NCBI GenBank assembly: GCA_000002445.1
Contig: CH464491.1
Location: 4,384,001 to 4,448,000 of the forward strand
DNA length: 64,000 nucleotides
From: Trypanosoma brucei
Lineage: Eukaryota
Direction of reading: 5' to 3'
This document shows, piece after piece, positions 20,907-63,541 of the stretch. The first letter of the stretch is position 1. Each line of letters begins with the position of its first letter. The notes under the pieces are model-generated. The model worked only from the letters and a program-made list of their open reading frames with translations, was not told where the DNA came from and searched no databases. The position numbers and the translations under genes are program-made.

Positions 20907-20948
<42 letters not shown>
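20907..20948. repeat. (AC)7(AT)14 compound microsatellite
   Basis: Direct reading. Confidence 0.95.

Positions 20949-20953
<5 letters not shown>

Positions 20954-22746: not shown

Positions 22747-22777
<31 letters not shown>

Positions 22778-23632: not shown

Positions 23633-23638
<6 letters not shown>

Positions 23639-23670
<32 letters not shown>
23639..23670. repeat. (AT)16 microsatellite
   Basis: Direct reading. Confidence 0.95.
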
Positions 23671-23673
<3 letters not shown>

Positions 23674-23950
23674 TATTACCTCCCCCTACCCAATCCATAT
23701 CCTAGCGGTTGCCATGTTCATTCTATTCCACATTTCGTGCCTCTGCTTTTTTTTTCGTCTATCCTCTTGTTTTGTTTTGTTATTTTTTTGCTGTGCTTGT
23801 TTCTGTTCGTGTGGGGAAGGGGGAGGGGGGACTTTCACCGTTGTTTTCCCCTTCTCCCTTTAAAGAAAAAAAAAAATTAATTCCTTATACAACCGAGATG
23901 ATTTCTGGTGTCAACATCGCTTCTACTCCTGCATTCCACTTAGCCGCACC

Positions 23951-40635: not shown

Positions 40636-41295
40636 TCAACGCTTCAGCCGCGGATAGTCTTTTGCTTCCCGTTCCTTCTGCAGTAAATCGTTCTCCTCAG
40701 CCGCAAGCCGCGAAGCGATGATTTGCTCCACCAGTGCATCAAACGCCTCTTTGAAATTATCACTTTGGTAGTCGAGCGACGTTTCGAGAGCGCGGATCCC
40801 TTGCAGTTGCTTTGGCATTGGAGGTATGGCGTTGTCACCGACAGCAAACTCTGGTAAGCTGGAGTGGTGCGAGAATATCAGGGAGTGGCCATCGGTGACA
40901 CGCATTTTGAAGTTGTTGTCGTCGTCGAGTTCATCCTGATTGAGGGCGAAATTTTTGTACCACAGCAACAGCTCCTTCTCTGACCCTTTTACCTCAGGGT
41001 TGAAGACATAAATGATTCCATCTGCATTGGAAGCAATGGCCGGCCATCCCGCCTGGTGCTTGCTGCTACCACCGACATCCCACAACTGAACAACGGCTTT
41101 CTTCAGGCCCGCCGCCTGCCTCCCCGATCGCCGGGTATCGTCAAGCGCAATCTCCACCTCGAGTACACGCAGTGGGTTGGTTTCATGATACTCCTTTGTA
41201 GGAGTGTCACGTGTGCCAGCAAGGAAGTTGGTGACAGTGGACTTCCCACTCTTGCTAGGCCCGAGCACAAGTATCTTTACCAAGTCGTCCGACAT
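40636..41295 (-). CDS. IFT22: IFT22 / RABL5 atypical Rab-like small GTPase (~219 aa from MSDDLVKILVLGP...)
   Basis: P-loop LVLGPSKSGKSTV. LWDVGG (G3). Blocks matching RABL5 (WPAIASNADGIIYVFNPE, ELLLWY). ORF 40636..41391, with start moved to the ATG at 41295 where the GTPase fold begins. Confidence 0.85.
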   Translation of the reverse strand: MSDDLVKILVLGPSKSGKSTVTNFLAGTRDTPTKEYHETNPLRVLEVEIALDDTRRSGRQAAGLKKAVVQLWDVGGSSKHQAGWPAIASNADGIIYVFNPEVKGSEKELLLWYKNFALNQDELDDDNNFKMRVTDGHSLIFSHHSSLPEFAVGDNAIPPMPKQLQGIRALETSLDYQSDNFKEAFDALVEQIIASRLAAEENDLLQKEREAKDYPRLKR

Positions 41296-41909
41296 TAGGA
41301 AATATAAATAACTCTCGAGTGTATTGTAAAATGAAGTTTTGCTCGGGTGGAGGAGAGGGGGAGGAGGAATCACCTGGGATATTCTAACCAAGCTTCGCCT
41401 CGGCCCACGTTTAATTTGTTTTGGTCTCTATTGAATTCTTTTATTTGTAGGTACGTATGTGGGGGAGGTGTGGCGTTACCCTTCCCTCTTTCGCTTTCCC
41501 TTTTTACTCTGATTTTGTGCATTTTGGAAGGATGACGTTAAAGAGGTGAGTGGGAAAGAGGGGAAGAAGAGGTGGCATGATAAAGCGAGGGGGGTTCACC
41601 GGGGGTTGTCGAGGATGAGACTCCGCTAAAAGTCGCACGGAGGTCTGAAAACAAAGAAAAATCAAACATCCGTGGTGCCGCATCACATAGCGCTCAAAAT
41701 ATACACCAACAAAACTGTGCGAAGCTCAAAGAACCCCACCACTATACATTCATTTGACTTGAAGCAATACGGGAAAACGAGGTGAACAAACTAAACCCAA
41801 AAATAGAGAGGGAAGAAAACAAAACAACGCAACCTGTAAACACCCCGCACATAGCTCACCAACTGGAGAATCAACTTGATAGACCCTAGGCCCGTACTGA
41901 ACTAATACA

Positions 41910-45539: not shown

Positions 45540-48185
45540 TCACTTCCCTACCTGGCGATGGTCGAGTAGCACCCAAAGCTGCTTCACCCACCGCACGGTC
45601 GCCTCCTGCGCGGCATCCCCACTCAATGCCTCTATGGCCATAAGAAAACACCGTTCCACAGCATCCATCACCTGCCCTAACCTTTCAGCCGCATGCGAAT
45701 TGTCAGCGACACGCTTCGCGAGGTCACCCTCCGGTACGTTGCCAACACATAACTGGTCCAGCACGGCGGCCTCAATAGTTTCGATGAAACATTCAGGAGT
45801 AACACCCATGACGGCAGATGGTCCCCCTACAGCAGCGGAGGGTCGAAAAACGCGCTGAAGTAACAGCAAACGGGAAACCACTAACGGAAGTGTAGCGAGG
45901 GCTGCACGTGACACTCCCTCAGGTGTCTCAAGCGCTTCCTCTGACGCGTTGTACCACATTGCCAACTGGTGAAGCTGTCCCTTAAGCACCATTGTACTTC
46001 TTCCCATAGCCCCTTGAGTGCTCGGCCCAAATGATATAGCCACACGAGGAACCTGGTGGAGGCAAACAGTCAAGTGCTCCCGCACCTCTTTGGTGAAGGG
46101 GTACACCAGTGTCACAGCAACCATCAGCCTTACAATAAGGCTGTCTGTGATCCGCCGCACGCTGTCAACTAGTGTGGGGGTCTGCGGATCGAACAAATAA
46201 TAGTAATGAGACATGAAATGCACTGTTTGACTCTGCAGTTGACTTATGCCCGCAGCCTCTTGACCGCACGCTCCGTCCACACACATAGACACAGAATCAA
46301 GCAGCAGCACCGAAACGGATCTGAAAAATGGGCGCACAACCTTTTCGCTAATTTTCTTTAGATTTATTGTGACTTCAAGAAGTTTTCTTTGTCTCTCTGC
46401 GACCAGCTTCCGCGTACTCACAGCAGATTCGTCACAGCACGCTCCCCCCGCCCCGTCGCATCCTCCGCCAGATGATTGCCACATATCGTCTCGACCCCCA
46501 ACGAATTCTCCCCTGTCTTCATCCTCCTCCCCCTCAGGCAACGAGGCAAGCATAACAGCAAAATCCATGCTGAGTTGTGTACAGGCGTTACTTATACATA
46601 TATGGAGCATTTGCAGCGTGTTAACGTCAGAGGACACCGAAGGAAGTGGGGGTAGAGGCCACCTCATACTTGTTTCCGTAACACGTTGCATGAATCCTGC
46701 GAGGCACTGCAACGTGCAAGCTAGTACCGTCGAAAGGGTTTGGGGGTCACGTTGATACTCCATCACATCTCGCATCGCCAGCGTGGCATAACTACGTACG
46801 TCTAACACGTGCGCGATGGCAGGAACCTGGGGACGCTGGAGGTCTACCGAGAGGTTGGGGAGTGGTTTGTTACCTCCGCTTGGAATTATGGAATTCAACC
46901 TTGAAATGACGCCGTGCAACCGCTCGCGGTGCCGATCCATAATTTGAGCACCAAAGCGCTCGTTTACCTCGCGCGTCACATGTGAAAGCCACATGCACCT
47001 CAGTTGCTCAACACCGCTAGGGAGACAAGCTCCGGCGCCTCCACCACCGCTGGTATTCGGGCGACCATTACTTGATGCATCCAACCCCATAAGTTGATCC
47101 AGCAATTCCAATAACTCTACCACATCGTCCAAAAAGGTGACGAGCAGTGAACGGTAGCGCAATATGTCGCCCGCCATTGCGTAGAAAAAATTGGGGCGCT
47201 TTTGTATGGCCTGCAGCCGCTCCCGTAACTTATCCGTGACAAAGTGCCAGTAGTCCCCAAGCACAGACGTGGGGTTATCCACAGCACTGAGGTACGGAAT
47301 TTGCGTGACGGGATCTGCTTTTTTCACAAGGACGCGCCACAACGCAATAACACTGCCCGTGTGCGTTGCCGTGGCCCTGAGGGCAGCCTGCAAATGAGAT
47401 GCAAGAACTTCGCAAGTTCGTGAGCCAACGTAATCAAAATCGCTGGTGGTGGCGGTACACTCATCATTAATTTCATTAGCTATTACCTGGATATCCAGTT
47501 CTCGCATAAGTGTCTTCATAACCTCTCGTTTCTGCTCGGTCATAAAGCCACTTATCACACGCGAAGCACTTCCCAAGGCAACGAAGCATTGTAAGGCGGT
47601 AGTGACATTGGATGCATCCCGGGAGTCCGCACGCCGCAGCATATCTTGTGCTCTGGACCGAATGACTGTCGCTGACCTCTCAACAACATCCATGCGAGAA
47701 CGCACCACGTCGATAGCCGCGATGTTTGCAGCCTGAAGAAGCTCCTCGACCTCCCGCATCGTTCGGGCAGCACGAGCAATGTCATCGGGAAGCAAACCCT
47801 TCAGTCGCGTTGTAAGGTTGATAAACCTAATGACACTCCGCAACGTATTTAGGGTGACGTTCGTGTTCCGCAGCTTCGTAATGCTCCCTTTGATGAGATG
47901 GTAAGGTTCGTAAATGGTGTGCCTGAGCCTGCTGGCGGAGTGCATAAGCGTAGCAGCAGCCTGGCGGACGGCGGCAGCGTCTCTTTGTGCGCAACTCGCA
48001 GCGGTCACCTGCCGAAGCATATCCTCCACATTCTCCGTAAGGATGTTATGCATCTCCTCCCGCACCGCTGCTGAACAGGAGGTGAGGCGCGATTGCTCCG
48101 TCTTACAACTTGAAGCATGGATAGCGTAGCGTAAGTAACCCTCCTCGTCAAAGTCCGGGCTCATAAGAATGCTGTCTGTAAACAT
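45540..48185 (-). CDS. COG5: Conserved oligomeric Golgi complex subunit 5 (COG5)-like protein, 881 aa
   Basis: N-terminal blocks parallel remembered COG5: DFDEEGYLRYAI, TLRSVIRFINLTTRLKGLL (cf. LLRRIIRILNLSKRLQGQL), TTALQCFVALGSASRVI (cf. GTALQVFYNLGTLKDTI). Size is appropriate. Confidence 0.75.
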   Translation of the reverse strand: MFTDSILMSPDFDEEGYLRYAIHASSCKTEQSRLTSCSAAVREEMHNILTENVEDMLRQVTAASCAQRDAAAVRQAAATLMHSASRLRHTIYEPYHLIKGSITKLRNTNVTLNTLRSVIRFINLTTRLKGLLPDDIARAARTMREVEELLQAANIAAIDVVRSRMDVVERSATVIRSRAQDMLRRADSRDASNVTTALQCFVALGSASRVISGFMTEQKREVMKTLMRELDIQVIANEINDECTATTSDFDYVGSRTCEVLASHLQAALRATATHTGSVIALWRVLVKKADPVTQIPYLSAVDNPTSVLGDYWHFVTDKLRERLQAIQKRPNFFYAMAGDILRYRSLLVTFLDDVVELLELLDQLMGLDASSNGRPNTSGGGGAGACLPSGVEQLRCMWLSHVTREVNERFGAQIMDRHRERLHGVISRLNSIIPSGGNKPLPNLSVDLQRPQVPAIAHVLDVRSYATLAMRDVMEYQRDPQTLSTVLACTLQCLAGFMQRVTETSMRWPLPPLPSVSSDVNTLQMLHICISNACTQLSMDFAVMLASLPEGEEDEDRGEFVGGRDDMWQSSGGGCDGAGGACCDESAVSTRKLVAERQRKLLEVTINLKKISEKVVRPFFRSVSVLLLDSVSMCVDGACGQEAAGISQLQSQTVHFMSHYYYLFDPQTPTLVDSVRRITDSLIVRLMVAVTLVYPFTKEVREHLTVCLHQVPRVAISFGPSTQGAMGRSTMVLKGQLHQLAMWYNASEEALETPEGVSRAALATLPLVVSRLLLLQRVFRPSAAVGGPSAVMGVTPECFIETIEAAVLDQLCVGNVPEGDLAKRVADNSHAAERLGQVMDAVERCFLMAIEALSGDAAQEATVRWVKQLWVLLDHRQVGK

Positions 48186-51791: not shown

Positions 51792-53678
51792 TCATTTCTT
51801 ACCGCGCGGCGACCGTTTTTTCACGTCCTCCACTGGCGCGGCGTCATCAACAGGAAGTTGCCTAAGCCGCTCCAACCGATACTGCAACAACTTGCTCAGG
51901 TCGTTCTGTACGTCCAGAAGCCTGTTATCCCCAGCATGATGCACAACGAAGCTGCTCAATGAGATGGAGACACAATAAGGTTCCGGTGGCTTCACAGCGC
52001 AGTGCCGTAGCATCGCCATGTCTGCATCATCGATCGGCTCATGCAGCGACAACACACGCAGAGCTTCAACAGCACCTTCGTATGTCAGGCGTTTGTTGTT
52101 TCCAAGGTTGAGGCAGCGCAGAACCGTGTTGCCAGGAGCCCGAACACGCGGGGGATCGTCCAAACGAAAGCAGTCGCGGTCAAATGGGGCCGTCGGTCGA
52201 GCGGGGGCCGGCTCCGCCTTCCTCGCCTTGGCCTGCAGTCCCTTCTTTGACTCCCGCCTGTCCTCTACAGGGGTGGGGTACCTGCACAAGTGCCAAGTGT
52301 TGTATAACTCTTGGTAACTTGGGTATGGCGGCGGCAAGGATGATATCATGCTCTTCTCCTTCGCAGTGGCGTTGTAACGTGACAGGTGCCGCTTTCGGTA
52401 CGCTGGCAGTTCCTCAGCGGGCATTTCTTGTATTCTGAAACAGTCAACCAAGGCAGCAAGGCCCCTGTCTCCAATGTCATTGTGCCCAAGGTCAAGCACC
52501 TGCAGCGTGCGATTCTTCTTCAAAAGCCGCGCAAGCGCTACAGCGCCATCATCGGAAATGTTATTTCCCCACAGATTGAGGCTTATCAGCTCACTACGGG
52601 GATGAGCCGAGAGCAATGAAGCTGTTAGGATGGCATCTCTATCACTAATACCGTTCCCTCGGAGACTCAAATGCTTCACGCCAGTGAGAAGCGCAGCCGG
52701 CCACCCGGGAGGGACCGGGATGCGGTTTTCTCTATCGAATTGTGCAAGCGTTTCGCGCTGCTGTTGAAGCTGCGCCTGCTTCTTGGAGTCTGTCTTTCCC
52801 TTTCGCTCCCTCTCCTCACGTATTTGAAGATCAAGCAACGAAGGTACATTGTTAAGCCCACGATACGCAGATGGCGAAAAAGTTGGGAGAGCCTCCGATG
52901 CTGCACCTCCAGATGACTGTCCGTCCGCACGAATGCTGGTCACTACAGACTCTGTGTGCAAAGAGGTTAGATCCCTGGAAGGGGCCCGCTTACGATCATC
53001 AAACCGTACGCTGGGAACATTCTTTTCTGTTGGAAACAATTCTCTTACCTTCGGTACTTCCACAGGCGCAATAGCAATCGTCGGGTCCTCGTAAAATCCT
53101 GGTTTAGGGGCACAGTTGAAGTCGACAGTCATAGAAACTAAGCGGCGACTCTTATACGATGCCTCCACAAGCAGGAAATAGCTCTCGCGCGATAAGCCGC
53201 ACCCCACGAACTCAACGGACACCAGCGAAGTGCAATACGGTATGGCAAGAGCAAGGGGCTTCATATCTCGTTCGTTGAGACAAAACTTGAGGTGACGCAT
53301 TAGAATGTAAAAAACAGTTGGTGGAGGCGGCGGCTGAGGATTTGAGGGAGAAGTATCGTTGTGTTCGCTTTTCTTTCTGGAGGGGGTCGCGCCCTCACGC
53401 TTCGCTCCGGTACCGTGACGCTTGGAAGTGGGGTTTTCTTTGGCCTTCTCAACCTCCGGTAAGGGCTCTTGTTGCAGTGTTTGCATTCGATTGGGTTCCT
53501 CCCATTGAAGGAGAATCGCCTCGTCCTCTGGTGACAGAGAGTGCTTTGTCTCCCTCTCCGCTTTCTGTTGCGTGTTCGTTATCAATGAGCGATAAACCTC
53601 CTCCCTCTCCGTGGTTCGTAGCGTGTGGCAGAAGGCGCTATAATCCACGCGTAAGTCCCCCGAAGGTTCAAAGAGCAT
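51792..53678 (-). CDS. Leucine-rich repeat (RNI/ribonuclease-inhibitor type) protein, 628 aa
   Basis: Repeating LxxLxLxxNxIxDxGAxALA units (LSLRGNGISDRDAILTASLL; LNLWGNNISDDGAVALARLL; LDLGHNDIGDRGLAALVDCF; LNLGNNKRLTYEGAVEALRVL). Basic/Pro-rich N-terminus. Confidence 0.8.
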   Translation of the reverse strand: MLFEPSGDLRVDYSAFCHTLRTTEREEVYRSLITNTQQKAERETKHSLSPEDEAILLQWEEPNRMQTLQQEPLPEVEKAKENPTSKRHGTGAKREGATPSRKKSEHNDTSPSNPQPPPPPTVFYILMRHLKFCLNERDMKPLALAIPYCTSLVSVEFVGCGLSRESYFLLVEASYKSRRLVSMTVDFNCAPKPGFYEDPTIAIAPVEVPKVRELFPTEKNVPSVRFDDRKRAPSRDLTSLHTESVVTSIRADGQSSGGAASEALPTFSPSAYRGLNNVPSLLDLQIREERERKGKTDSKKQAQLQQQRETLAQFDRENRIPVPPGWPAALLTGVKHLSLRGNGISDRDAILTASLLSAHPRSELISLNLWGNNISDDGAVALARLLKKNRTLQVLDLGHNDIGDRGLAALVDCFRIQEMPAEELPAYRKRHLSRYNATAKEKSMISSLPPPYPSYQELYNTWHLCRYPTPVEDRRESKKGLQAKARKAEPAPARPTAPFDRDCFRLDDPPRVRAPGNTVLRCLNLGNNKRLTYEGAVEALRVLSLHEPIDDADMAMLRHCAVKPPEPYCVSISLSSFVVHHAGDNRLLDVQNDLSKLLQYRLERLRQLPVDDAAPVEDVKKRSPRGKK

Positions 53679-54540: not shown

Positions 54541-57500
54541 TCATAGCGCTCCACGGGGTGGGCGTTGTTCCGAGCGGAGTGCCTGTACAAGTTTCCACGA
54601 GGCCAACCCACGCATGTGCTGCTGCATAACCACAACATATTGGTCCGCGATACTGGCACTATCACCTACAGAGCCTACCTTCTGTGTAGTAACTTGGTAA
54701 TAGTAGTGCCCGAGGCTAGCCCACAGATCCGCACCCTCGGGGGAGTCGCTCACAATGGCTGCCACGGCGGCCGCAATCTCCTCATCGTGTGCTTGAATGG
54801 AACCCCAGTAACGCTCCTTGGCGACGAGCCTCTCCTTCACCGACCGTCTAGCCTTGTACGAACGGAACGCACGCTGAACCTTCATTGCAGCTTCATCTAG
54901 CAGACACTCCGCATCACTATCCGTCACACGCTTCTCCTCCACGAGTGCCTTCCTCCTCTCAACCTCACGCCTGGCTAAATACATCCGCATGAAAGGCAGT
55001 ATCTTTTCGCATGCAGCACTGAGTCTGCGCCTCTCCTCCACGAGTGCCTTCCTCCTCTCAACCTCACGCCTGGCTAAATACATCCGCATGAAAGGCAGTA
55101 TCTTTTCGCATGCAGCACTATGTCTGCGTCTCTCCTCCACAAGCGATCTCCGCCTCTCAACCTCACACCTGGCTAAGTGCATCTGCATCGACGGCAATAT
55201 CTTTTCACACGCAGCACTATGTCTGCGTCTCTCCTCCACAAGCGATCTCCGCCTCTCAACCTCACACCTGGCTAAGTGCATCTGCATCAACGGCAATATC
55301 TTTTCACATGCAGCACTATGTCTGCGTCTCTCCTCCACGAGTGCCTTCCGCCTCTCAACTTCACGCCTGGCCAAATGCATCTGCATGAAGGGCAGTATCT
55401 TTTCGCATGCAGCACTGAGTCTGCGTCTCTCTTCCACAAGCGATCTCCGCCTCTGCAACTCCCTCCTAGCCACTGCACACAGGAGGAATGATTCAATAGT
55501 CGAGGATGGCTTTTCCAACACAGAGCACATACCCTCTTGCTGGGCCATGCGAGCTTCAATTGCATCCTTACGAGCCCTACGCTCCTGTTTGGCACGGAAG
55601 ATAAGGGCCAAGCCATTTAGCACTTCCAGTGCTTCTAGTGGTTCTTCGTTCCTTCGGTTGATAGTAGCCGCTGCACGACGGGAGGCTACCTCCTTCTTCG
55701 ACTGTATGATGCGCATGAAACCTTTGAGAACTTCAAGGGCATCACCTACATTCGAAACGCATTCTGGTTGAGGGCGCTCTGCAAACTGCCTCGGTGTTCT
55801 AGGTGGCATGCGGCAACTAACATGCATCATGCTAACCTTCGCACGCAAGAAAGACAAAACGACGTTTACGCGGCGCAGCCGCCGAAACTGGTCCGTGCCG
55901 TCCATAACCAGGCGAGAACATTTCTGAAGCTCCTTGTACTCCAGATCGGGTGACTCCGACCGATCTACCCCGATCCTGCAGTTCACGTAGTCGGCGAAAA
56001 GTTCCCGCAACACACGGTAGTGTAGGCGAGCAAGATATCCTCGTGCTAAGCGAGTGATTGCCAACGCCGCTTGGTCCCTTAAGTTATTGGCCTCTTCATC
56101 TTGTGACCGGTGTTGAGATTGCAAATTTGATGAGGACTCCGCTGATTTCGAGTACGTTCGCCTCGGGGCCACTGGTCGTTGCCGCATGAGTGGTGGACGA
56201 GGCAACAGCGTTAGCACCTCTTCCGCGGTTTCAGCCTCTGCAATCTTCCGCAAACGATATTCGTTTGCCTCCAAGCGACTGTTGCAGCAGTCATTGTAGA
56301 ACTTTATTTCATCCTTCCGCACTTGTCGCCACTTTTCTCTTTCTTCGGCTAGTGCGGCACCCAGGGCAGACTTCTCTTGGTGTCCCACCACCTCACACTC
56401 CCCAACAACATCAAAAGAGCGATCAATTCCTTCATGCCCCAAAGGCTTAACGATTTCTTCAGCCGAATGCCCACCATTATCCGGCCTCGCAAATTCTCCT
56501 ACAGGTTCATTAATATCTAGGTTTAGCTCCGTGGCCGACGGCTCAACACCTTCCAAGTACAATGCTGGCCGCTCCCCGGGCTCTGAATACATAGCATGCT
56601 CTTTTATCAATGACAATCCGACACGCTCCTCCGGAATAATAGGCGTAGCAAGGTGCTGCAACTCAGGTACAACACCTACATCCCCTGGAGAACACGGCAT
56701 CGTCAATTCCAACTTAACGCCTTCTGCGCGCGGGGTGGGTTTTTCTGGCACTTGCTGGCACGAGATGGCAGGTTCCTCTTGGACAGCTCCGCTGGCACTT
56801 CCCAATCCCCCGACCCCTGGCAGCCGCTCGATTTGCTCGTCCCCAGCCAGTGGCAACAGTCGCCCTGCACCGTTAGCTAACGGTTTTGGTAGCCTTGAAT
56901 CCTCAGCGGGTGACGGTAGCAGCTGACAAACGCTCCTGTGAGAGGTCAGAGACCCTTTTACCTTTGGCATCACGTCAAGTGGTGTTGGAGATAACGCGGA
57001 GTGATGCCTGTCATTTGTACACCCGTCGGGTAGTGACCGACGCATAAATGGAACACCTTCCAATCCCCCTCTCACGCTGGAGGGCTCATGAACTCTATGG
57101 TGTCCAGAAACGACCGTTGACGAACGGTTAGCCTCTTCAAGATCGCGCTCCCTCCGCACAAACTCCTGGACCTCCACTGCCATTTGATAAAGTGATCGGC
57201 CCAGTGAAAGCCGGACGAAGTAAGCGCGGCCAATTCTTTGCATAGTGAACGCAAACGCACTAAGACGCGAGTCCAAGAGTTGTCTTCTGCGTTCCTTTTT
57301 CATACGCTTCAGGAGAGATTTCGACCGATAGAGACGGTACGCACGCTGAATCTTCGAAGCTGCCCGACTCTGCAGGCAATGACCACGAATGCGCCTTGCT
57401 GCGTTCTCACGAGCAACATCGAGCAGAGGCCCTGCATTTCTCGCCACAATAATCCGCCTGCCAAAGGCCTGAAGCTTCTTGGCAGCATCGCACCGCCGCT

Positions 57501-60500
57501 GGTGTTCACGAAGTCTCTCTTCACGCGCGGCCCGCAGTTCCCTCATTTTATTGAGCTCCTTTCTAGAAATATACAAACGCCACGCCTTTTGGATTTTCCG
57601 CGCGGCGGATAAGTAGCGAGCTTCCAGATGCCTTCGCCGGAGTCGAGCCGCCCTCAGCCTCGCCTCCCGTGTCTGCTGCTCTGCCCTTCGTCTCCTCCAC
57701 TGGCTCTGTATGACCGTGGCCGCAACTTCTTGCCGTTCCCTCAGGGCCACCTCGTTTTTAACAAGTTGATGCATTTCTCGCAGTTTCTCCACCCTTCGGG
57801 TTGCCATAACCTTGCGCCACCACGTCTGCAGTCGGAAGGCAGCAGAAGATGCGTTATTCTTCAAGAACTGCCTCCGCGCTAGACGCCGTCGGGCCCGCCA
57901 CTGCCGCGCACAGCACTGGATACGCACAGCGGCCCTGTTTATTTCATTGGCAAGAACGTCACGGTTCTTGTAACGTGCGGTAGAACCCGATCTTATACTC
58001 AGGTGCCTCCTAAAAGTCCTTTGAATCTTACGGGCTGCTATTGACCTTCTTACCCCATCCAGTACACGGTCGCGGGCGCTTTTGGACTTTACTGCCTCGA
58101 ACAACTGTCGAGCCTTGAAAGCACGGTAAGCTCTTTGAATGGTAACCGCACAGCCCGACTTGCGCCACAAATCTTCCTCATCGAACAAAAGCATATCTAA
58201 GCGATCAACAACGTACGTAACAAGATTTGCTCCAGGTGGGAGGCCCTGGATCCTTCTTGACGGCGCATCAACGGACAATGGGGGGACGCCCGGTCCCATA
58301 ACACTGGATTTGGAAATGGGCGACCTGCCTTGTTTATCCTTGGCGGCAGAAAATGGAGAGGCCTTTGGTTGAGGAAATTTCCTTACAGGAGACCCCGTAT
58401 CGTTTGAAGGTGCATTGGGTGATAGTCGCCCGACGGCGCTGTGGGCATCAGCGGCATGCTGACCCCGGCGCGCAGCCCCCTCAACCTCCATGGTAACAGT
58501 ATGGAGTTTCTTCTTAGTTGCGTCGTGAGTGGCAGCGGCCTGATGAGTCGGACGCGAGGATGGTGAAGATTCGCGAGCTGAAGAAGATACCCTCCTGCCA
58601 GTCTTGTTACCTGTACCACCGGCTTGCTGATTGTGCAGAAATGGAGCATCAGGATCCGCAGCAACGGATTGCATTTTCCTTCCCGAACTGTCGCGAGCAG
58701 CAGGCGACTGCGCAACCGGTCGGGTGCGCTCTGCATTGGGGGATAACTTCCTGCCGACAGCGCTGCGGCCCCCAACAGCCTGATGGGTCGGACGCGAGGA
58801 TGGTGAAGATTCGCGAGCTGAAGAAGATACCCTCCTGCCAGTCTTGTTACCTGTACCACCGGCTTGCTGATTGTACAGAAATGGAGCATCAGGATCCGCA
58901 GCAACGGATTGCATTTTCCTTCCCGAACTGTCGCGAGCAGCAGGCGACTGCGCAACCGGTCGGGTGCGCTCTGCATTGGGGGATAACTTCCTGCCGACAG
59001 CACTGCGGCCCCCAACAGCCTGCTGAGTCGGACGCGAGGGCGCTGACGGCTCCACAGCAGCAGACTGCGTCCTTCCTTTGGGACTGTTACGTTGACCTGG
59101 GGTCCTCTGATTCGAGCCGGTTGCTCCCACACTTACCGGCGAAGACTGAGCATTCGGTTGTGAGAGGGAGATGTTTGACCTCATCGAACCCTTCATTGGT
59201 GGTCTACATTCAGATCGACTGGCACCACTCTTCGCATTGGACTTTGTGTGCACCGACTCATTGTCGGCAAAACCTGCACCTTTCCCTTGGGACCCGACAT
59301 CACCAGGTCGTGCCGTAGCTTCCCGTTTATATGGCATTCTCGTAGCGGCGACGGGAGACCTTGTAGCCACTGAGAGCGCAACGCCACCTTTATTTGAAAC
59401 CCTCTCATTGTTTTTGGTCAAAGATTTTGACTGTTCACCCACATTCGCCCCACGGTGGTGCTCGGAGGGGCCACCAGACTCGCGTAACGTAGCCCTCGAG
59501 CCCTGCGAAATGGGTGGAAGACGACTAGCATTCGGCGAAGCTCCACCCGATTTCGTTGAATTACCGCCCTTCAAACCGCTGCCATGGGAAGCAGACCCGC
59601 CATTTGTCTGGCTCTGCCATGCAGCAGGCCTCGACAGTGATGTTTTCGAATTTACCCCGGGTGCTGTTGCCGCCGCTGCTGCGGCACTCGGTGGATGACC
59701 GGCGTCAGCACGGGCCGGACGCGAGATGCTACGCTTCGCAACGGTTTCCTTGGCACTCACCGCGAAAGGGTGAGGAAAGATGTCCACACGATGGGTCCTA
59801 GATGCAGCATCCCGACCACTGGGTGAACGTTCCCTGCTGCAAGACCGCGGACTAACAAACAAGGTGTGTCCGCAGGATGAGCGGGGTGAGTTCGTACCCG
59901 TCAAAGCTGAATTACCCGGTCGACATTCGTGAAGCACCATGACAAACCGCTGCATATTACTTTCGATCGTTCTTGTGACCTCACTCCTCCTACTGATCGT
60001 ATTCTGAGCCAAACCCAGCGCCAACCGATACTCTTCATGAGCACGTGGGGGGTCGATCAACTCCAGAGCCATAGCGAGGTTGTGGTGCGCCACTGCTAGC
60101 AAAGAAGGGTCCTCAGGATTGGGCCCAAGACTTTGTATCGCACACACCGCACTATGCGCGGCTTCTTCACATAACCTCAGTTGCACCTGCACAGCACTAA
60201 TGTTTAGGAACGCTACGGGGGATTGTTGCCCCGTGCATTGCATCGATTGCTGCATGTAGTCCAGGGCAGTAGTAAAATGCCCCCGGTGGCGCTCCATGCA
60301 ACCGTGGTTGTTCAGGGTCACGCCGCGCAGTAGTCGGCGGCGCTCATCGTCTTTGCGCAAGGGAAAGGAACCCTCTCCTGTCATCTCCATGGCGTAGCCA
60401 AAGAGAGGTGTAGCAACGTCATATTTTCCTTCCTTGAACAATTTTACACCGAGAACATTGCACTTCATCACAACACGCTCCGCAGCGTCACATGCCTCCT

Positions 60501-60720
60501 TTAGGAGCTCAGGGGATGACGACCCCGTTCCATACTCCTTGCAGCGTATCTGGAGCGCAGTCTCCATCAGTTGCAAGCATTCCATGTCGTTGCCTCCAGC
60601 CTCAAGCGTGGATGCACGGTACTCCATCTTCCGCGCATCCTGCAGAGTCTCCTTCCCAGTAAGACCCGAAGAGGGGTGATGCGGGCCATCTTTGCGTGCA
60701 CTAGACGCTGCGATGGACAT
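54541..60720 (-). CDS. Giant modular protein (2059 aa): N-terminal TPR-like helical domain, Ser/Pro/Ala-rich disordered region with 80-aa x2 repeat, about ten IQ calmodulin-binding motifs, and C-terminal 33-aa x5 near-identical tandem repeats
   Basis: IQ motifs read directly: IQRAYRAFKARQ, IQRTFRRH, IQCCARQWRARRR, IQSQWRRRRAEQ, IQKAWRLYISRK, LQAFGRRIIVAR, IQRAYRLYRSKS, MQRIGRAYFVRL, LARGYLARLHYR, VQRAFRSYKARR. TPR-like N-terminus (AAHSAVCAIQSLGPNPEDPSLLAVAHHNLAMALELID...). Repeats are confirmed at the DNA level. Confidence 0.85.
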   Translation of the reverse strand: MSIAASSARKDGPHHPSSGLTGKETLQDARKMEYRASTLEAGGNDMECLQLMETALQIRCKEYGTGSSSPELLKEACDAAERVVMKCNVLGVKLFKEGKYDVATPLFGYAMEMTGEGSFPLRKDDERRRLLRGVTLNNHGCMERHRGHFTTALDYMQQSMQCTGQQSPVAFLNISAVQVQLRLCEEAAHSAVCAIQSLGPNPEDPSLLAVAHHNLAMALELIDPPRAHEEYRLALGLAQNTISRRSEVTRTIESNMQRFVMVLHECRPGNSALTGTNSPRSSCGHTLFVSPRSCSRERSPSGRDAASRTHRVDIFPHPFAVSAKETVAKRSISRPARADAGHPPSAAAAAATAPGVNSKTSLSRPAAWQSQTNGGSASHGSGLKGGNSTKSGGASPNASRLPPISQGSRATLRESGGPSEHHRGANVGEQSKSLTKNNERVSNKGGVALSVATRSPVAATRMPYKREATARPGDVGSQGKGAGFADNESVHTKSNAKSGASRSECRPPMKGSMRSNISLSQPNAQSSPVSVGATGSNQRTPGQRNSPKGRTQSAAVEPSAPSRPTQQAVGGRSAVGRKLSPNAERTRPVAQSPAARDSSGRKMQSVAADPDAPFLYNQQAGGTGNKTGRRVSSSARESSPSSRPTHQAVGGRSAVGRKLSPNAERTRPVAQSPAARDSSGRKMQSVAADPDAPFLHNQQAGGTGNKTGRRVSSSARESSPSSRPTHQAAATHDATKKKLHTVTMEVEGAARRGQHAADAHSAVGRLSPNAPSNDTGSPVRKFPQPKASPFSAAKDKQGRSPISKSSVMGPGVPPLSVDAPSRRIQGLPPGANLVTYVVDRLDMLLFDEEDLWRKSGCAVTIQRAYRAFKARQLFEAVKSKSARDRVLDGVRRSIAARKIQRTFRRHLSIRSGSTARYKNRDVLANEINRAAVRIQCCARQWRARRRLARRQFLKNNASSAAFRLQTWWRKVMATRRVEKLREMHQLVKNEVALRERQEVAATVIQSQWRRRRAEQQTREARLRAARLRRRHLEARYLSAARKIQKAWRLYISRKELNKMRELRAAREERLREHQRRCDAAKKLQAFGRRIIVARNAGPLLDVARENAARRIRGHCLQSRAASKIQRAYRLYRSKSLLKRMKKERRRQLLDSRLSAFAFTMQRIGRAYFVRLSLGRSLYQMAVEVQEFVRRERDLEEANRSSTVVSGHHRVHEPSSVRGGLEGVPFMRRSLPDGCTNDRHHSALSPTPLDVMPKVKGSLTSHRSVCQLLPSPAEDSRLPKPLANGAGRLLPLAGDEQIERLPGVGGLGSASGAVQEEPAISCQQVPEKPTPRAEGVKLELTMPCSPGDVGVVPELQHLATPIIPEERVGLSLIKEHAMYSEPGERPALYLEGVEPSATELNLDINEPVGEFARPDNGGHSAEEIVKPLGHEGIDRSFDVVGECEVVGHQEKSALGAALAEEREKWRQVRKDEIKFYNDCCNSRLEANEYRLRKIAEAETAEEVLTLLPRPPLMRQRPVAPRRTYSKSAESSSNLQSQHRSQDEEANNLRDQAALAITRLARGYLARLHYRVLRELFADYVNCRIGVDRSESPDLEYKELQKCSRLVMDGTDQFRRLRRVNVVLSFLRAKVSMMHVSCRMPPRTPRQFAERPQPECVSNVGDALEVLKGFMRIIQSKKEVASRRAAATINRRNEEPLEALEVLNGLALIFRAKQERRARKDAIEARMAQQEGMCSVLEKPSSTIESFLLCAVARRELQRRRSLVEERRRLSAACEKILPFMQMHLARREVERRKALVEERRRHSAACEKILPLMQMHLARCEVERRRSLVEERRRHSAACEKILPSMQMHLARCEVERRRSLVEERRRHSAACEKILPFMRMYLARREVERRKALVEERRRLSAACEKILPFMRMYLARREVERRKALVEEKRVTDSDAECLLDEAAMKVQRAFRSYKARRSVKERLVAKERYWGSIQAHDEEIAAAVAAIVSDSPEGADLWASLGHYYYQVTTQKVGSVGDSASIADQYVVVMQQHMRGLASWKLVQALRSEQRPPRGAL
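54931..55462. repeat. 99-bp tandem repeat, ~5.3 near-identical units, in-frame coding (33-aa units ...RRRHSAACEKILPxMQMHLARxEVERRxxLVEE...)
   Basis: Unit ctcctccacgagtgccttcctcctctcaacctcacgcctggctaaatacatccgcatgaaaggcagtatcttttcgcatgcagcactgagtctgcgcct repeated with few substitutions. Also produces the spurious + strand ORF 54989..55771. Confidence 0.9.
58540..59045. repeat. 240-bp tandem repeat, ~2.1 units, in-frame coding (80-aa Ser/Pro/Arg-rich units)
   Basis: tgatgagtcggacgcgaggatggtgaagattcgcgagctgaagaag... recurs at 58551, 58791 and (partial) 59021. Produces the spurious + ORF 58518..59318. Confidence 0.9.
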
Positions 60721-61083
60721 CAGTTCGTGGGATCACTAACCTGCTTGACCTTCAACCACTAGACAGCTCCGTACAAACAGCTACCCCTCCCCGTCCAACC
60801 GCCCAGACGCTTCTACACCCTTCACTCCGTTTATTCTATTACGTCGGGTCCTTCTCGATTGGAGTGACTTCCTCTGGAGACCTAATACCACCGAGTACAA
60901 ACGATGAGATATTCTGCGAAATGCAACACACACACACACACACACGCACACACTTTCCTGAGCGTCACCCACACCTGCAACTATAAATACAAAGGCGGTA
61001 CCTCACAGGATATTCTTTCTCTAGTCCTCCCCTTGTTAAGAAGAAAAGAGCTTTGACACAGAGAAGCGGGAGAGGTGAAAAGG
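59690..61083. repeat. Copy A of a ~1.4-kb direct segmental duplication (first 343 codons plus 363-bp 5' flank of the IQ/TPR gene)
   Basis: Aligned by eye to 62135-63541. About 6-8 point differences plus a (CA)n length difference. Confidence 0.9.
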
Positions 61084-62101
61084 GGGAAATGCGCGTCAAC
61101 AACAGATGAACCGTCAATCGAGCTGCGTAGAGAAACATTTGGGTAAAAGAGAAATAGGAAAGCAACCAACTCATGGAGCACCACAAAGATATATACATGT
61201 ACATGTCACAAAGTAGTACATACGCACCCACCGGTCCGCGGGGGGATAGAAAATGAAGCAAAAAGAAAAACATACACTGAGAGGGAAGCCCGACACAATC
61301 GAAAACATTCAGGAGGACTAGCTGAGGTCACTATGAGTATCACCACAGTGTCCCTCTACCCCTTATAGGGAAACAATGCCATATTGCATACTGGCAACAA
61401 AAAAAAAATAACATGTGCAAGTACCTCACCGGGTGTGCAACGTGTGGAGCGCAAGTGCTGACGCGTACTATGGTAAGAAGCACACAAGGCCTGGGCTACG
61501 GATGGAAGTTACCGCACAAGGCTCACTCGCATGCGCCAATGCAAGGGACAAACAGCGGCCAACACACCAACGCTACGTGCACCTCCTGCTCAGAGAGATC
61601 TAAGAAGTTTCCTTCTGTCTTCACTTGCAGCTGCCTCCTACATCCGGACAGAAGATTACGTCCTACGAATGCAGTGTAAGGTGCCAGCCCCGTCCGCAAC
61701 TTTAGCCGGGTACAAATACATTGGTCTAAGTTATGAAATTCAAACATTCGTAATCTGTTCAAGTCCCCCTTCATGAGAAAACACACACGAGCAGTAAACA
61801 TTTAAAAAAAATTATGAAGCTCACACTCCCCGTGTACCGCTCCTTCCGACAAAAAAACTATTATCGGCTCCACTTGTAGCGCACATGTAAGTGAACGTGA
61901 TGGATGTAACGATGAGTACAACAAATTTAGGTCCACTTACCGCAGCTCAAAAAACAGTGGCAGCAATTTATAGACGAAACATGGAGAATATAAGCAAAGG
62001 TGTCGCCATCATTTGAACTCCATAACCGTGCCAAATACAGCATAAATGATAGCTTCGTCAGTTAGTTTCTACCTCGTGGAGCCCTGTGAGGTTTAAACGC
62101 A

Positions 62102-63166
62102 CTAATTCATTGGTGATAACGACGTTAAACGCTTTGGTGGATGGCCGGCGTCAGCACGGGCCGGACGCGAGATGCTACGCTTCGCAACGGTTTCCTTGGC
62201 ACTCACCGCGAAAGGGTGAGGAAAGATGTCCACACGATGGGTCCTAGATGCAGCATCCCGACCACTGGGTAAACGTTCCCTGCTGCAAGACCGCGGACTA
62301 ACAAACAAGGTGTGTCCGCAGGATGAGCGGGGTGAGTTCGTACCCGTCAAAGCTGAATTACCCGGTCGACATTCGTGAAGCACCATGACAAACCGCTGCA
62401 TATTACTTTCGATCGTTCTTGTGACCTCACTCCTCCTACTGATCGTATTCTGAGCCAAACCCAGCGCCAACCGATACTCTTCATGAGCACGTGGGGGGTC
62501 GATCAACTCCAGAGCCATAGCGAGGTTGTGGTGCGCCACTGCTAGCAAAGAAGGGTCCTCAGGATTGGGCCCAAGACTTTGTATCGCACACACCGCACTA
62601 TGCGCGGCTTCTTCACATAACCTCAGTTGCACCTGCACAGCACTAATGTTTAGGAACGCTACGGGGGATTGTTGCCCCGTGCATTGCATCGATTGCTGCA
62701 TGTAGTCCAGGGCAGTACTAAAATGCCCCCGGTGGCGCTCCATGCAACCGTGGTTGTTCAGGGTCACACCGCGCAGTCGTCGGCGGCGCTCATCGTCTTT
62801 GCGCAAGGGAAAGGAACCCTCTCCTGTCATCTCCATGGCGTAGCCAAAGAGAGGTGTAGCAACGTCATACTTTCCTTCCTTGAACAATTTTACACCGAGA
62901 ACATTGCACTTCATCACAACACGCTCCGCAGCGTCACATGCCTCCTTTAGGAGCTCAGGGGATGACGACCCCGTTCCATACTCCTTGCAGCGTATCTGGA
63001 GCGCAGTCTCCATCAGTTGCAAGCATTCCATGTCGTTGCCTCCAGCCTCAAGCGTGGATGCACGGTACTCCATCTTCCGCGCATCCTGCAGAGTCTCCTT
63101 CCCAGTAAGACCCGAAGAGGGGTGATGCGGGCCATCTTTGCGTGCACTAGACGCTGCGATGGACAT
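62102..63166 (-). CDS. Truncated paralog (354 aa) of the N-terminal TPR-like region of the 2059-aa IQ protein, produced by a 1.4-kb direct duplication; may be an expressed short isoform or a pseudogene-like fragment
   Basis: First 343 codons are about 99% identical to the 5' end of 54541..60720 (differences: RRRLL vs RRRRL, HFTT vs HFST, RERSPS vs RERLPS). Identical 363-bp 5' flank. The frame leaves the duplicated segment at about 62135 and ends ...HPPKRLTSLSPMN. Confidence 0.5.
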   Translation of the reverse strand: MSIAASSARKDGPHHPSSGLTGKETLQDARKMEYRASTLEAGGNDMECLQLMETALQIRCKEYGTGSSSPELLKEACDAAERVVMKCNVLGVKLFKEGKYDVATPLFGYAMEMTGEGSFPLRKDDERRRRLRGVTLNNHGCMERHRGHFSTALDYMQQSMQCTGQQSPVAFLNISAVQVQLRLCEEAAHSAVCAIQSLGPNPEDPSLLAVAHHNLAMALELIDPPRAHEEYRLALGLAQNTISRRSEVTRTIESNMQRFVMVLHECRPGNSALTGTNSPRSSCGHTLFVSPRSCSRERLPSGRDAASRTHRVDIFPHPFAVSAKETVAKRSISRPARADAGHPPKRLTSLSPMN

Positions 63167-63371
63167 CAGTTCGTGGGATCACTAACCTGCTTGACCTTCA
63201 ACCACTAGACAGCTCCGTACAAACAGCTACCCCTCCCCGTCCAACCGCCCAGACGCTTCTACACCCTTCACTCCGTTTATTCTATTACGTCGGGTCCTTC
63301 TCGATTGGAGTGACTTCCTCTGGGGACCTAATACCACCGAGTACAAACGATGAGATATTCTGCGAAATGCA

Positions 63372-63406
<35 letters not shown>

Positions 63407-63541
63407 CTTTCCTGAGCGTCACCCACACCTGCAACTACAAATACAAAGGCGGTACCTCACAGGATATTCTCTCTCTAGTCCTCCCCTTGTTAAGAAGAAA
63501 AGAGCTTTGACACAGAGAAGCGGGAGAGGTGAAAAGGAGGG
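62135..63541. repeat. Copy B of the ~1.4-kb direct segmental duplication, separated from copy A by 1.05 kb of unique sequence (61084-62134)
   Basis: Same as copy A. Left boundary (copy A 59690, copy B 62135): homology stops within ~5 nt of the shared ggtgga, and the by-eye alignment differs at two positions in that stretch. Right boundary: shared ...gagaggtgaaaagg, after which A continues gggaaatgcgc and B continues aggggttaagc. Confidence 0.9.

What the first reader, a model, noticed from the sequence alone, without database searches (positions are those of the whole stretch)
54541..60720. Giant TPR + multi-IQ + tandem-repeat protein, a candidate calmodulin-binding scaffold
Seen in sequence: one 6.2-kb ORF combines (i) an N-terminal ~250-aa TPR-like helical module and (ii) a ~600-aa Ser/Pro/Ala/Arg-rich disordered region containing an 80-aa duplicated unit. 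It also has (iii) at least ten canonical IQ motifs ([ILVM]Qxxx[RK]xxxx[RK]) spaced 20-30 aa apart, and (iv) five near-identical 33-aa units (AACEKILPxMQMHLARxEVERR) that themselves resemble degenerate IQ/basic amphipathic helices. Established knowledge: tandem IQ arrays recruit calmodulin or light chains (myosin necks, ASPM/Asp, IQ-motif flagellar proteins). Inference: this is a large calmodulin-recruiting structural protein, plausibly cytoskeletal or flagellar. The extreme nucleotide identity of the 33-aa units implies recent expansion or concerted evolution, so copy number may vary between strains.
Basis: partly seen in the sequence, partly recalled or inferred. Interest (0 to 1): 0.65.

Follow-up and report, generated by a model that had tools for sequence, protein, structure and literature searches.

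The report
FLAM7, a known trypanosome flagellar protein
The 6.2-kb gene encodes Trypanosoma brucei FLAM7, an already named flagellar protein whose helical docking domain and row of calmodulin-binding-type motifs are real and conserved, but whose calmodulin binding and function remain untested.

Summary
The ORF 54541-60720 (- strand, 2059 aa) is real. It is identical to T. brucei TREU927 XP_829746.1 / UniProt Q380Z7, "Flagellar Member 7" (FLAM7).

- Residues 26-265 form a TPR superhelix (AlphaFold pLDDT 88.7; Foldseek hits to kinesin light chain, LGN and consensus TPRs).
- Residues 266-840 are a poorly conserved Ser/Ala/Gly/Arg/Pro-rich region with an 80-aa duplication (233/240 nt identical).
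- Pfam IQ is significant (E 3e-12).
- There are five tandem 33-aa units.

Corrections:
Ortholog conservation supports 9 in one array plus 2 isolated.
- Motif spacing is 30-41 aa, not 20-30.
- The 33-aa units are only 81-93% identical in DNA. They score no Pfam IQ hit but align to a canonical IQ motif in Leishmania orthologs.

Repeat copy number does differ between assemblies (33-aa units: 5, 5, 3, 3; 80-aa units: 2, 3, 2).

The Leishmania mexicana ortholog is enriched in detergent-insoluble flagella. A T. brucei paralog, Tb927.10.970 (TPR + IQ string), localises to the paraflagellar rod and is essential.

Calmodulin binding is plausible but unshown. This is a correct reading of a known, little-studied protein, so novelty is low.

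The parts
54541..60720 (-). FLAM7 coding sequence (2059 aa plus stop)
   Evidence: Exact match to XP_829746.1 / Q380Z7 'Flagellar Member 7'.
59926..60645 (-). TPR superhelix, aa 26-265 (11 helices)
   Evidence: AlphaFold pLDDT 88.7. Foldseek hits to KLC1/2, LGN, OGT and consensus TPR. Ortholog profile versus PDB: consensus TPR, E 2e-14. Pfam TPR_12 27.9 bits, E 2.7e-6, below the cut-off. The majority residue averages 68% of sequences per column across 16 orthologs.
59764..59784 (-). Invariant short motif D-I-F-P-H-P-F, aa 313-319, inside the disordered region
   Evidence: FPHPF is invariant in the 16-sequence alignment and present in all 34 FLAM7-orthogroup sequences held. It is absent from the paralog P0096 and from Bodo P0040.
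58201..59925 (-). Ser/Ala/Gly/Arg/Pro-rich, poorly conserved region, aa 266-840, presumed disordered
   Evidence: Composition and conservation profile. No Pfam hit. Disorder is inferred from composition and low conservation; it was not predicted with a dedicated tool.
58564..59043 (-). Two tandem 80-aa (240-nt) units, aa 560-719
   Evidence: TRF period 240 x2.1, 98% matches. 7 differences in 240 nt. T. b. gambiense has three units.
57196..58152 (-). Array of nine conserved IQ motifs, aa 857-1175 (first residues 861, 899, 934, 964, 1004, 1043, 1083, 1124, 1160)
   Evidence: Pfam IQ. Gln at motif position 2 in 16/16 orthologs at 7 of 9 sites; Arg at position 6 in 16/16 at 7 of 9 sites. AlphaFold predicts three long helices (836-910, 924-1111, 1116-1199) with no globular fold, pTM 0.28. 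The array profile hits RSP23, the myosin-5A neck, FAP305, Sp17 and KCNQ1 IQ segments in the PDB.
56011..56070 (-). Isolated IQ-like motif AALAITRLARGYLAR, aa 1551-1570 (Gln replaced by Thr)
   Evidence: Pfam IQ 16.7 bits, E 0.006, for the peptide. I1555 and R1565 are invariant and G1561 is present in 15/16 orthologs.
55447..55758 (-). Three divergent IQ-like helical units, aa 1655-1758 (ALEVLKGFMRIIQSKK..., ALEVLNGLALIFRAKQ..., TIESFLLCAVARRELQ...)
   Evidence: Aligned with the conserved 'GFxRIIxAKK' units of orthologs. No Pfam hit.
54952..55446 (-). Five tandem 33-aa (99-nt) units, aa 1759-1923: degenerate IQ (ILPFM[QR]M[HY]LAR) followed by an Arg/Glu-rich helix
   Evidence: TRF. Unit table with 81-93% DNA identity. 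The units align to the canonical Leishmania IQ motif AALRIQRFFRGVQARRR. Other assemblies have 3 units.
54832..54891 (-). C-terminal canonical IQ motif AAMKVQRAFRSYKARR, aa 1944-1963
   Evidence: Pfam IQ 24.9 bits, above the cut-off of 20.3. Conserved in orthologs.
62102..63166 (-). Upstream truncated paralog (354 aa): a copy of FLAM7 aa 1-344 (TPR domain plus FPHPF motif) with a 10-aa novel tail
   Evidence: Translation. Segmental duplication 59690-61086 = 62136-63541, 98.7% over 1406 nt. 3 amino-acid and 4 synonymous differences. The same gene is annotated in T. b. gambiense as CBH18785.1.

Best explanation
The gene encodes FLAM7, a conserved kinetoplastid flagellar protein.

Proposed build:
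- An N-terminal TPR superhelix of the kinesin-light-chain type acts as a peptide-docking module.
- A long, poorly conserved and probably disordered linker follows. It carries one invariant short motif, [DE][IL]FPHPF.
- About 350 residues of extended alpha-helix then carry nine conserved IQ motifs.
- Further IQ and IQ-like helices lie towards the C-terminus.

Proposed mechanism: the protein is anchored in the detergent-insoluble flagellar skeleton (paraflagellar rod or axoneme surface). It holds a row of calmodulin or calmodulin-like EF-hand light chains on its IQ helices. This would make it a structural, calcium-responsive scaffold analogous to a myosin lever arm without the motor.

The lineage-specific tandem repeats change the length of the linker and of the C-terminal helical rod. 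They differ in copy number between strains.

Shown: identity, domain architecture, conservation of IQ key residues, extended-helix prediction, flagellar and insoluble fractionation of the Leishmania ortholog, and repeat polymorphism.

Inferred: light-chain binding, the identity of the light chain, the anchoring site in T. brucei, and any calcium dependence.
For: - Identity to Q380Z7 'Flagellar Member 7'.
- FLAM7 was named from the intact-flagella proteome and detected in L. infantum flagella.
- L. mexicana ortholog LmxM.31.3150: spectral counts Ci 5, Cs 0, Fi 46, Fs 3 in run 1, and Ci 3, Cs 0, Fi 18, Fs 0 in run 2. That is a flagellar, detergent-insoluble profile.
- Pfam IQ E 3.2e-12. Nine peptides are individually IQ-positive.
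- The key Gln and Arg positions are near-invariant across 16 orthologs spanning Trypanosoma, Leishmania, Leptomonas and Novymonas.
- The array profile matches IQ segments of proteins solved with calmodulin or light chains: myosin-5A neck, RSP23, KCNQ1, IQSEC1.
- AlphaFold predicts long isolated helices, pTM 0.28.
- TPR fold.
- The paralog Tb927.10.970 has the same TPR + phospho-cluster + IQ-string layout, localises to the paraflagellar rod in TrypTag, and gives a severe knockdown phenotype.
- Calmodulin and calmodulin- or calcium-binding domains are reported in the paraflagellar rod sub-proteome.
Against: - I found no binding experiment for FLAM7 and calmodulin.
- T. brucei FLAM7 has lost the Gly at motif position 7 in most IQs. 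Only 3 motifs pass the Pfam cut-off individually, and 2 array motifs (1083, 1160) score nothing.
- Spacing of 30-41 aa differs from the 23-25 aa of myosin necks (the myosin figure is from memory), so calmodulins would not be close-packed.
- PMC4559404 groups FLAM7 with 'membrane or matrix fraction' proteins. This conflicts with the insoluble fractionation in L. mexicana.
- FLAM7 is absent from all solved axoneme structures, so it is not an ordered doublet-microtubule component.
- I could not obtain T. brucei localisation data for this gene (no gene ID, and the Subota paper is not held).
Confidence: 0.6

Rival explanations
1. The IQ helices bind dedicated calmodulin-like or centrin-type EF-hand light chains rather than canonical calmodulin. 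FLAM7 would then be a light-chain-stiffened structural strut with no direct calmodulin signalling role.
For: Many T. brucei motifs deviate from the full IQxxxRGxxxR consensus: Gly is lost at most sites, and Gln is replaced by Thr or Leu in the IQ-like units. From general knowledge, myosin necks often use specialised light chains.
Against: No candidate light chain was identified here. The motifs that pass Pfam are ordinary IQs, and calmodulin is reported in the paraflagellar rod.
Confidence: 0.2
2. The Arg-rich helices are not light-chain sites in vivo. They would act as basic single alpha-helix spacers or bind acidic surfaces such as tubulin tails or rod proteins directly, and the 33-aa Arg/Glu-rich repeats would simply set length.
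For: The IQ array is 21% Arg, and the 33-aa array is 23% Arg and 15% Glu. AlphaFold predicts long isolated helices. The three repeat units tested score no Pfam IQ hit. The L. mexicana ortholog is detergent-insoluble.
Against: A spacer would not need Gln at motif position 2 and Arg at position 6 to be invariant across 16 orthologs. These are exactly the IQ contact positions, and the array profile matches solved light-chain-bound IQ segments.
Confidence: 0.15
3. The ORF is an assembly artefact: a chimera, or a product of collapsed repeats.
For: It contains two tandem-repeat arrays, and a 1.4-kb segmental duplication overlaps its 5' end. Copy numbers differ between assemblies, so the reference count could be inexact.
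Against: Full-length collinear proteins exist in T. b. gambiense (2139 aa) and T. b. equiperdum (1993 aa). Orthologs of T. cruzi, T. theileri, Leishmania and others align from the TPR domain to the C-terminal IQ.
Confidence: 0.03

Closest known systems
T. brucei FLAM7 (Flagellar Member 7; UniProt Q380Z7, XP_829746.1) and its trypanosomatid orthologs (LinJ.32.3350, LmxM.31.3150, T. cruzi 'Flagellar Member 7')
   Same: It is this protein: 100% identity over 2059 aa. Orthologs share the TPR domain, the FPHPF motif, the nine-IQ array and the C-terminal IQ.
   Different: Nothing, except that repeat copy number differs between strains and repeat families differ between species.
Tb927.10.970 (T. brucei paralog; Marques et al. 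2022, PMC9464253)
   Same: N-terminal TPR domain 28% identical (E 5e-17). It has a phosphorylated middle region and a long string of IQ motifs (Pfam IQ 97.7 bits). TrypTag places it in the paraflagellar rod.
   Different: It is a separate gene whose primers are absent from the window. It lacks the FPHPF motif and has no tandem repeats, and it has more IQ motifs (15 by the simple pattern). Its knockdown causes endoreduplication. No phenotype is known to me for FLAM7.
Myosin V neck (lever arm)
   Same: Tandem IQ motifs on a long exposed helix. The FLAM7 array profile aligns to the myosin-5A neck (E 2e-5), and AlphaFold predicts extended helices.
   Different: No motor domain. Spacing is 30-41 aa rather than about 23-25 (the myosin figure is from memory). 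An N-terminal TPR domain and a disordered linker take the place of the motor.
Flagellar IQ proteins with solved structures (Chlamydomonas RSP23, FAP305; Sp17)
   Same: Flagellar proteins whose IQ segments match the FLAM7 array profile (E 2e-7 to 1e-3).
   Different: Those carry one or a few IQs and sit in ordered axonemal complexes. FLAM7 itself matches no solved chain.
Kinesin light chain TPR domain
   Same: Among the closest structural matches of the FLAM7 TPR domain (KLC1 6fv0_A, rmsd 2.4 A over 192 columns), with a profile hit at E 1e-3. From memory, KLCs also have an 'LFP-acidic' linker motif that binds their own TPR, reminiscent of [DE][IL]FPHPF.
   Different: Only 15-21% identity. There is no heptad-repeat kinesin-binding region. 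The motif resemblance is untested.
ASPM/Asp and plant IQD proteins (cytoskeleton-bound calmodulin scaffolds)
   Same: Functional analogy only: large proteins that place many IQ motifs on a cytoskeletal polymer.
   Different: No calponin-homology or ASH domains and no IQ67 domain were detected. There is no sequence relationship beyond the IQ motif.

Membership tests
FLAM7 orthogroup (Trypanosomatida) | Sequence identity or orthology to T. brucei Q380Z7 | tested here: met
   Exact-sequence look-up returns XP_829746.1 / Q380Z7 'Flagellar Member 7'.
FLAM7 orthogroup (Trypanosomatida) | Collinear architecture: TPR, then [DE][IL]FPHPF, then the nine-IQ array, then the C-terminal IQ | tested here: met
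   16-sequence alignment. Motif present in all 34 orthogroup sequences held.
FLAM7 orthogroup (Trypanosomatida) | Flagellar localisation | not testable with these tools
   Literature only: named from the intact-flagella proteome, and the L. mexicana ortholog is enriched in insoluble flagella. The primary T. brucei paper is not held.
IQ calmodulin-binding motif proteins (Pfam PF00612) | Match to the IQ HMM above the gathering score | tested here: met
   45.5 bits against a cut-off of 20.3, E 3.2e-12, 7 stretches. Peptides at 861, 1043 and 1948 pass individually.
IQ calmodulin-binding motif proteins (Pfam PF00612) | Consensus residues [ILV]Q...R....R conserved under selection | tested here: met
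   Gln and Arg near-invariant at the nine array sites across 16 orthologs. 6 pattern matches against 0.56 expected.
IQ calmodulin-binding motif proteins (Pfam PF00612) | Physical binding of calmodulin or an EF-hand light chain | not testable with these tools
   No experimental data found.
TPR repeat proteins | Pfam TPR match above the gathering score | tested here: not met
   T. brucei: TPR_12 27.9 bits against 30.1, and TPR_10 23.8 against 27.5, although the E-values are 2.7e-6 and 4.3e-5. Several orthologs carry precomputed TPR hits.
TPR repeat proteins | Helix-turn-helix superhelical fold | tested here: met
   AlphaFold gives 11 helices, pLDDT 88.7. All top Foldseek PDB hits are TPR domains, probability 1.0. 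The ortholog profile hits consensus TPR at E 2e-14.
Myosin or ASPM-type IQ proteins | Motor domain (myosin) or calponin-homology/ASH domains (ASPM) | tested here: not met
   Pfam reports only IQ and weak TPR hits. No PDB sequence hit for the full protein.
Ordered axonemal doublet (96-nm repeat) components | Present as a modelled chain in T. brucei or Leishmania axoneme structures | tested here: not met
   phmmer of FLAM7 against all PDB chains gives 0 hits. The TPR chains 9e5c_6r and 9y6s_6s are only 17% identical.

The most novel reading that the evidence does not exclude
FLAM7 and its paralog Tb927.10.970 would define a kinetoplastid-specific family of TPR-IQ scaffolds. These would tether ordered rows of calmodulin to the paraflagellar rod or flagellar skeleton and so provide the long-postulated calcium-sensing layer of that structure. 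In FLAM7, the invariant [DE][IL]FPHPF motif would regulate the kinesin-light-chain-like TPR domain by intramolecular binding. The strain-variable degenerate-IQ repeats would tune rod length or light-chain load.
Probability: 0.2. Interest if true: 0.5.

Novelty: already known. Interest (0 to 1): 0.22.

Why it matters
[quoted passage not shown] Calcium and calmodulin have long been linked to the paraflagellar rod without a clear receptor. FLAM7 is a named but functionally uncharacterised flagellar protein.

Its nine-IQ array is under strong purifying selection, and it has an essential rod-localised paralog. Both points make it a reasonable candidate calmodulin tether. However, the gene, its name and its IQ and TPR annotations are already in public databases, so the first-stage finding adds little beyond a correct reading.

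Modest new points from this check:
- The paralogy with Tb927.10.970.
- The origin of the 33-aa repeat from a degenerate IQ motif.
- The invariant FPHPF motif.
- The truncated TPR-only duplicate upstream.

Tried and rejected
- **Is Tb927.10.970 this gene?** The published description of Tb927.10.970 (TPR, phospho-cluster, IQ string) fits the ORF. But its RNAi and qPCR primers are absent from the window, and residue 706 here is Lys, not Thr. Protein P0096 carries four primer-derived peptides and T706, so Tb927.10.970 is a paralog, not this gene.
- **The primary FLAM7 paper** (Subota 2014) could not be read by DOI or PMC id.
- **The TriTrypDB gene ID and TrypTag localisation** of FLAM7 could not be recovered from the TrypTag, APEX2 or RIT-seq supplements. 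The look-up of encoding contigs had no record.
- **Are the 33-aa units IQ motifs by HMM?** No hit for the three units tested. Only alignment to orthologs shows the relationship.
- **Is FLAM7 in solved axoneme structures?** No.
- **Chimera or mis-assembly** is contradicted by collinearity with orthologs.
- **The + strand ORFs** overlapping the gene (54989-55771, 58518-59318, 59171-59698) were treated as antisense by-products and not pursued.

Full report
**Observation.** The window has the look of a trypanosomatid polycistronic unit: nearly all ORFs of 200 aa or more are on the - strand, and the few + strand ORFs all overlap a - strand ORF. The flagged ORF, 54541-60720 (-), is intact and encodes 2059 aa. 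An exact-sequence look-up identifies it as Trypanosoma brucei brucei TREU927 XP_829746.1 / EAN80634.1 / UniProt Q380Z7, named "Flagellar Member 7" (FLAM7). The same cluster holds T. b. gambiense (2139 aa), T. b. equiperdum (1993 aa) and an N-terminally truncated T. equiperdum model.

**N-terminal module.**
- In the whole-protein Pfam scan the only TPR hit is below threshold.
- Scanned alone, residues 1-270 give TPR_12 at 27.9 bits (E 2.7e-6) and TPR_10 at 23.8 bits. Both are just under the curated cut-offs.
- Several orthologs carry precomputed TPR hits.
- A profile of 12 orthologs (alignment A2) hits consensus TPR proteins (E 2e-14), OGT and kinesin light chain 1 in the PDB.
- AlphaFold on that alignment gives a confident model: pLDDT 88.7, pTM 0.81, 11 helices over residues 26-265.
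- Its Foldseek neighbours are all TPR superhelices (consensus TPR, KLC1/2, LGN, OGT) at probability 1.0.

The TPR reading is therefore correct.

**Linker.** Residues 266-840 are rich in Ser, Ala, Gly, Arg and Pro. The majority residue averages only 23% of sequences per column across 16 orthologs. The region contains a 240-nt unit repeated 2.1 times, and the two copies differ at 7 of 240 nt. One exception to the low conservation is the motif D-I-F-P-H-P-F (aa 313-319). FPHPF is invariant in the 16-sequence alignment and in all 34 orthogroup sequences held, but it is absent from the paralog and from the Bodo homolog.

**IQ motifs.**
- Pfam IQ is clearly significant: 45.5 bits against a cut-off of 20.3, E 3.2e-12, 7 stretches.
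Shuffles give 0.56 on average and never more than 5.
- Scanning 36-aa peptides one at a time gives IQ hits at 861, 899, 934, 964, 1004, 1043, 1124, 1555 and 1948. Three of these are above the cut-off. There are no hits at 1083, 1160 or 2032.
- Conservation is the stronger argument. In an alignment of 16 orthologs, the nine sites from 861 to 1160 keep Gln at motif position 2 in 16/16 sequences at seven sites, and Arg at position 6 in 16/16 at seven sites. I1555/G1561/R1565 and the 1948 motif are also conserved.
- The best count is therefore nine motifs in one array plus two isolated ones.
- Spacing in the array is 30-41 aa, not the 20-30 aa claimed.
- A profile of the array (A3) matches IQ segments of RSP23, the myosin-5A neck, FAP305, Sp17, KCNQ1 and IQSEC1 in the PDB.
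- AlphaFold predicts three very long helices (836-910, 924-1111, 1116-1199) with no tertiary packing: pLDDT 79.8, pTM 0.28. That is the picture expected of a lever-arm-like rod.

**33-aa units.**
- There are five units (aa 1759-1923; 99-nt period x5.3).
- They are 81-93% identical in DNA and 79-91% in protein, with many synonymous differences and a mosaic pattern of variants. "Extreme nucleotide identity" is an overstatement.
- The three units scanned against Pfam score no IQ hit.
- In the ortholog alignment, the T. brucei unit AACEKILPFMRMYLARRE lines up with the canonical Leishmania motif AALRIQRFFRGVQARRR and with intermediate Trypanosoma forms. In motif register, ILPFMRMYLAR is an IQ motif with Gln replaced by Leu.
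- T. cruzi and T. theileri have two such units at this position.
- An unnamed trypanosome protein (P0007, 44% identical) has its own array of at least six. This fits lineage-specific expansion with homogenisation within each species.

**Strain variation and assembly.**

| Assembly | 33-aa units | 80-aa units |
|---|---|---|
| TREU927 | 5 | 2 |
| T. b. gambiense DAL972 | 5 | 3 |
| T. b. equiperdum | 3 | 2 |
| T. equiperdum OVI (N-truncated model) | 3 | not covered |

These counts come and match the length differences seen. They support the copy-number prediction, with the caveat that assemblies can miscount repeats. The ORF is collinear with all orthologs from the TPR domain to the C-terminal IQ, so it is not a chimera. 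Other lineages carry different repeat families in the same protein. L. major, for example, has up to 15 copies of an unrelated 33-aa unit.

**Family and literature.**
- A word-indexed search found 28 homologs, all trypanosomatid. Many are annotated Flagellar Member 7 or IQ/TPR protein.
- An exhaustive HMM search with the TPR-domain profile found 42 proteins below 1e-30. They include a Bodo saltans "IQ calmodulin-binding protein" and a prokinetoplastid protein, both with TPR and IQ Pfam hits.
- Marques et al. 2022 describe Tb927.10.970 as a protein with a TPR, a phosphorylation cluster and an IQ string. TrypTag places it in the paraflagellar rod, and its knockdown causes endoreduplication and severe growth loss.
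- Its primers are not in this window. Hit P0096 carries four primer-derived peptides and Thr706. P0096 is 28% identical to FLAM7 over the TPR domain (E 5e-17). FLAM7 therefore has an essential, rod-localised paralog.
- For FLAM7 itself the held literature is thin. A Leishmania infantum flagellar proteome lists LinJ.32.3350 as FLAM7 and, citing Subota et al. 2014, groups it with membrane or matrix proteins.
- In the L. mexicana fractionation data, LmxM.31.3150 (2377 aa, the same length as P0030) is found overwhelmingly in detergent-insoluble flagella: 46 of 54 spectra in run 1 and 18 of 21 in run 2. The two sources disagree on solubility.
- FLAM7 matches no chain in any solved structure, so it is not an ordered doublet-microtubule protein.
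- Calmodulin and calmodulin- or calcium-binding domains are reported in the paraflagellar rod sub-proteome.

**Mechanism.** The best-supported model is a flagellar-skeleton-associated scaffold.
- The TPR domain docks a partner.
- The linker is flexible and probably regulated.
- About 350 residues of exposed helix hold a row of calmodulin or calmodulin-like light chains.
- The C-terminal degenerate-IQ and Arg/Glu-rich repeats extend the rod.

Binding, the light-chain identity and the anchoring site in T. brucei are inferences.

Rival readings are dedicated non-calmodulin light chains, or basic helices acting as spacers or direct polymer binders. The spacer reading is weakened by the invariance of exactly the IQ contact residues.

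**Verdict.** The finding is a largely accurate description of a known, named gene whose IQ and TPR content is already annotated in public databases. Novelty is low and interest modest. The open question, whether FLAM7 really tethers calmodulin in the flagellum, is directly testable.

Noticed in passing
window 62102-63166 (-); duplication 59690-61086 = 62136-63541: A 1.4-kb segmental duplication (98.7% identical) copies the FLAM7 5' flank and its first 344 codons. This creates an upstream 354-aa ORF with only the TPR domain, the FPHPF motif and a 10-aa novel tail. The same truncated gene is annotated in T. b. gambiense (CBH18785.1). Whether it is expressed, or acts as a competitor of FLAM7, is unknown.
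   Followed up: partly
window 59764-59784 (-), FLAM7 aa 313-319: The motif [DE][IL]FPHPF is invariant in all 34 FLAM7-orthogroup sequences held, inside an otherwise poorly conserved linker. It is absent from the paralog Tb927.10.970 and from the Bodo homolog. From memory, it recalls the LFP-acidic autoinhibitory motif of kinesin light chains, whose TPR domain is a top structural match. I did not test this.
   Followed up: partly
P0096 (not in window): Tb927.10.970, published as an essential paraflagellar-rod protein with a TPR and an IQ string, is a paralog of FLAM7 (TPR domains 28% identical, E 5e-17). I did not see this relationship stated in the paper passages read.
   Followed up: yes
orthologs P0023, P0028, P0030, P0022 (Leishmania), P0008 (T. 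cruzi), P0007: FLAM7 orthologs are repeat-prone in a lineage-specific way. Leishmania species carry up to 15 copies of an unrelated 33-aa unit (PKRPLTAEQIAAERAELDRLE...). T. cruzi has 47- and 14-aa periods. P0007 has its own 33/66-aa degenerate-IQ array. Bodo and Tb927.10.970 have none.
   Followed up: partly
FLAM7 aa ~26-97 (window ~60430-60645): The first helices of the TPR-domain profile weakly match MIT domains of VPS4B/SKD1 and katanin p60 (E 0.01-0.1). This is probably a generic three-helix resemblance.
   Followed up: no
window 27215-53678 (-): Neighbouring genes on the same strand, by Pfam: an LRR protein (51792-53678), COG5 (45540-48185), a small Ras/Arf-like GTPase (40636-41391) and a protein with a weak dynein light-intermediate-chain match (31152-32408). 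Four others have no Pfam hit. No functional link to FLAM7 is implied in a polycistronic unit.
   Followed up: partly
window 20001-24000 and 34001-40000: Stretches of low G+C (0.31-0.42) interrupt the roughly 0.5 G+C coding background. They are probably long intergenic or UTR regions. Not examined.
   Followed up: no
literature (PMC4559404 versus PMC6615630): The sources disagree on solubility. FLAM7 is cited as a membrane or matrix-type flagellar protein, yet the L. mexicana ortholog fractionates almost entirely with detergent-insoluble flagella.
   Followed up: partly
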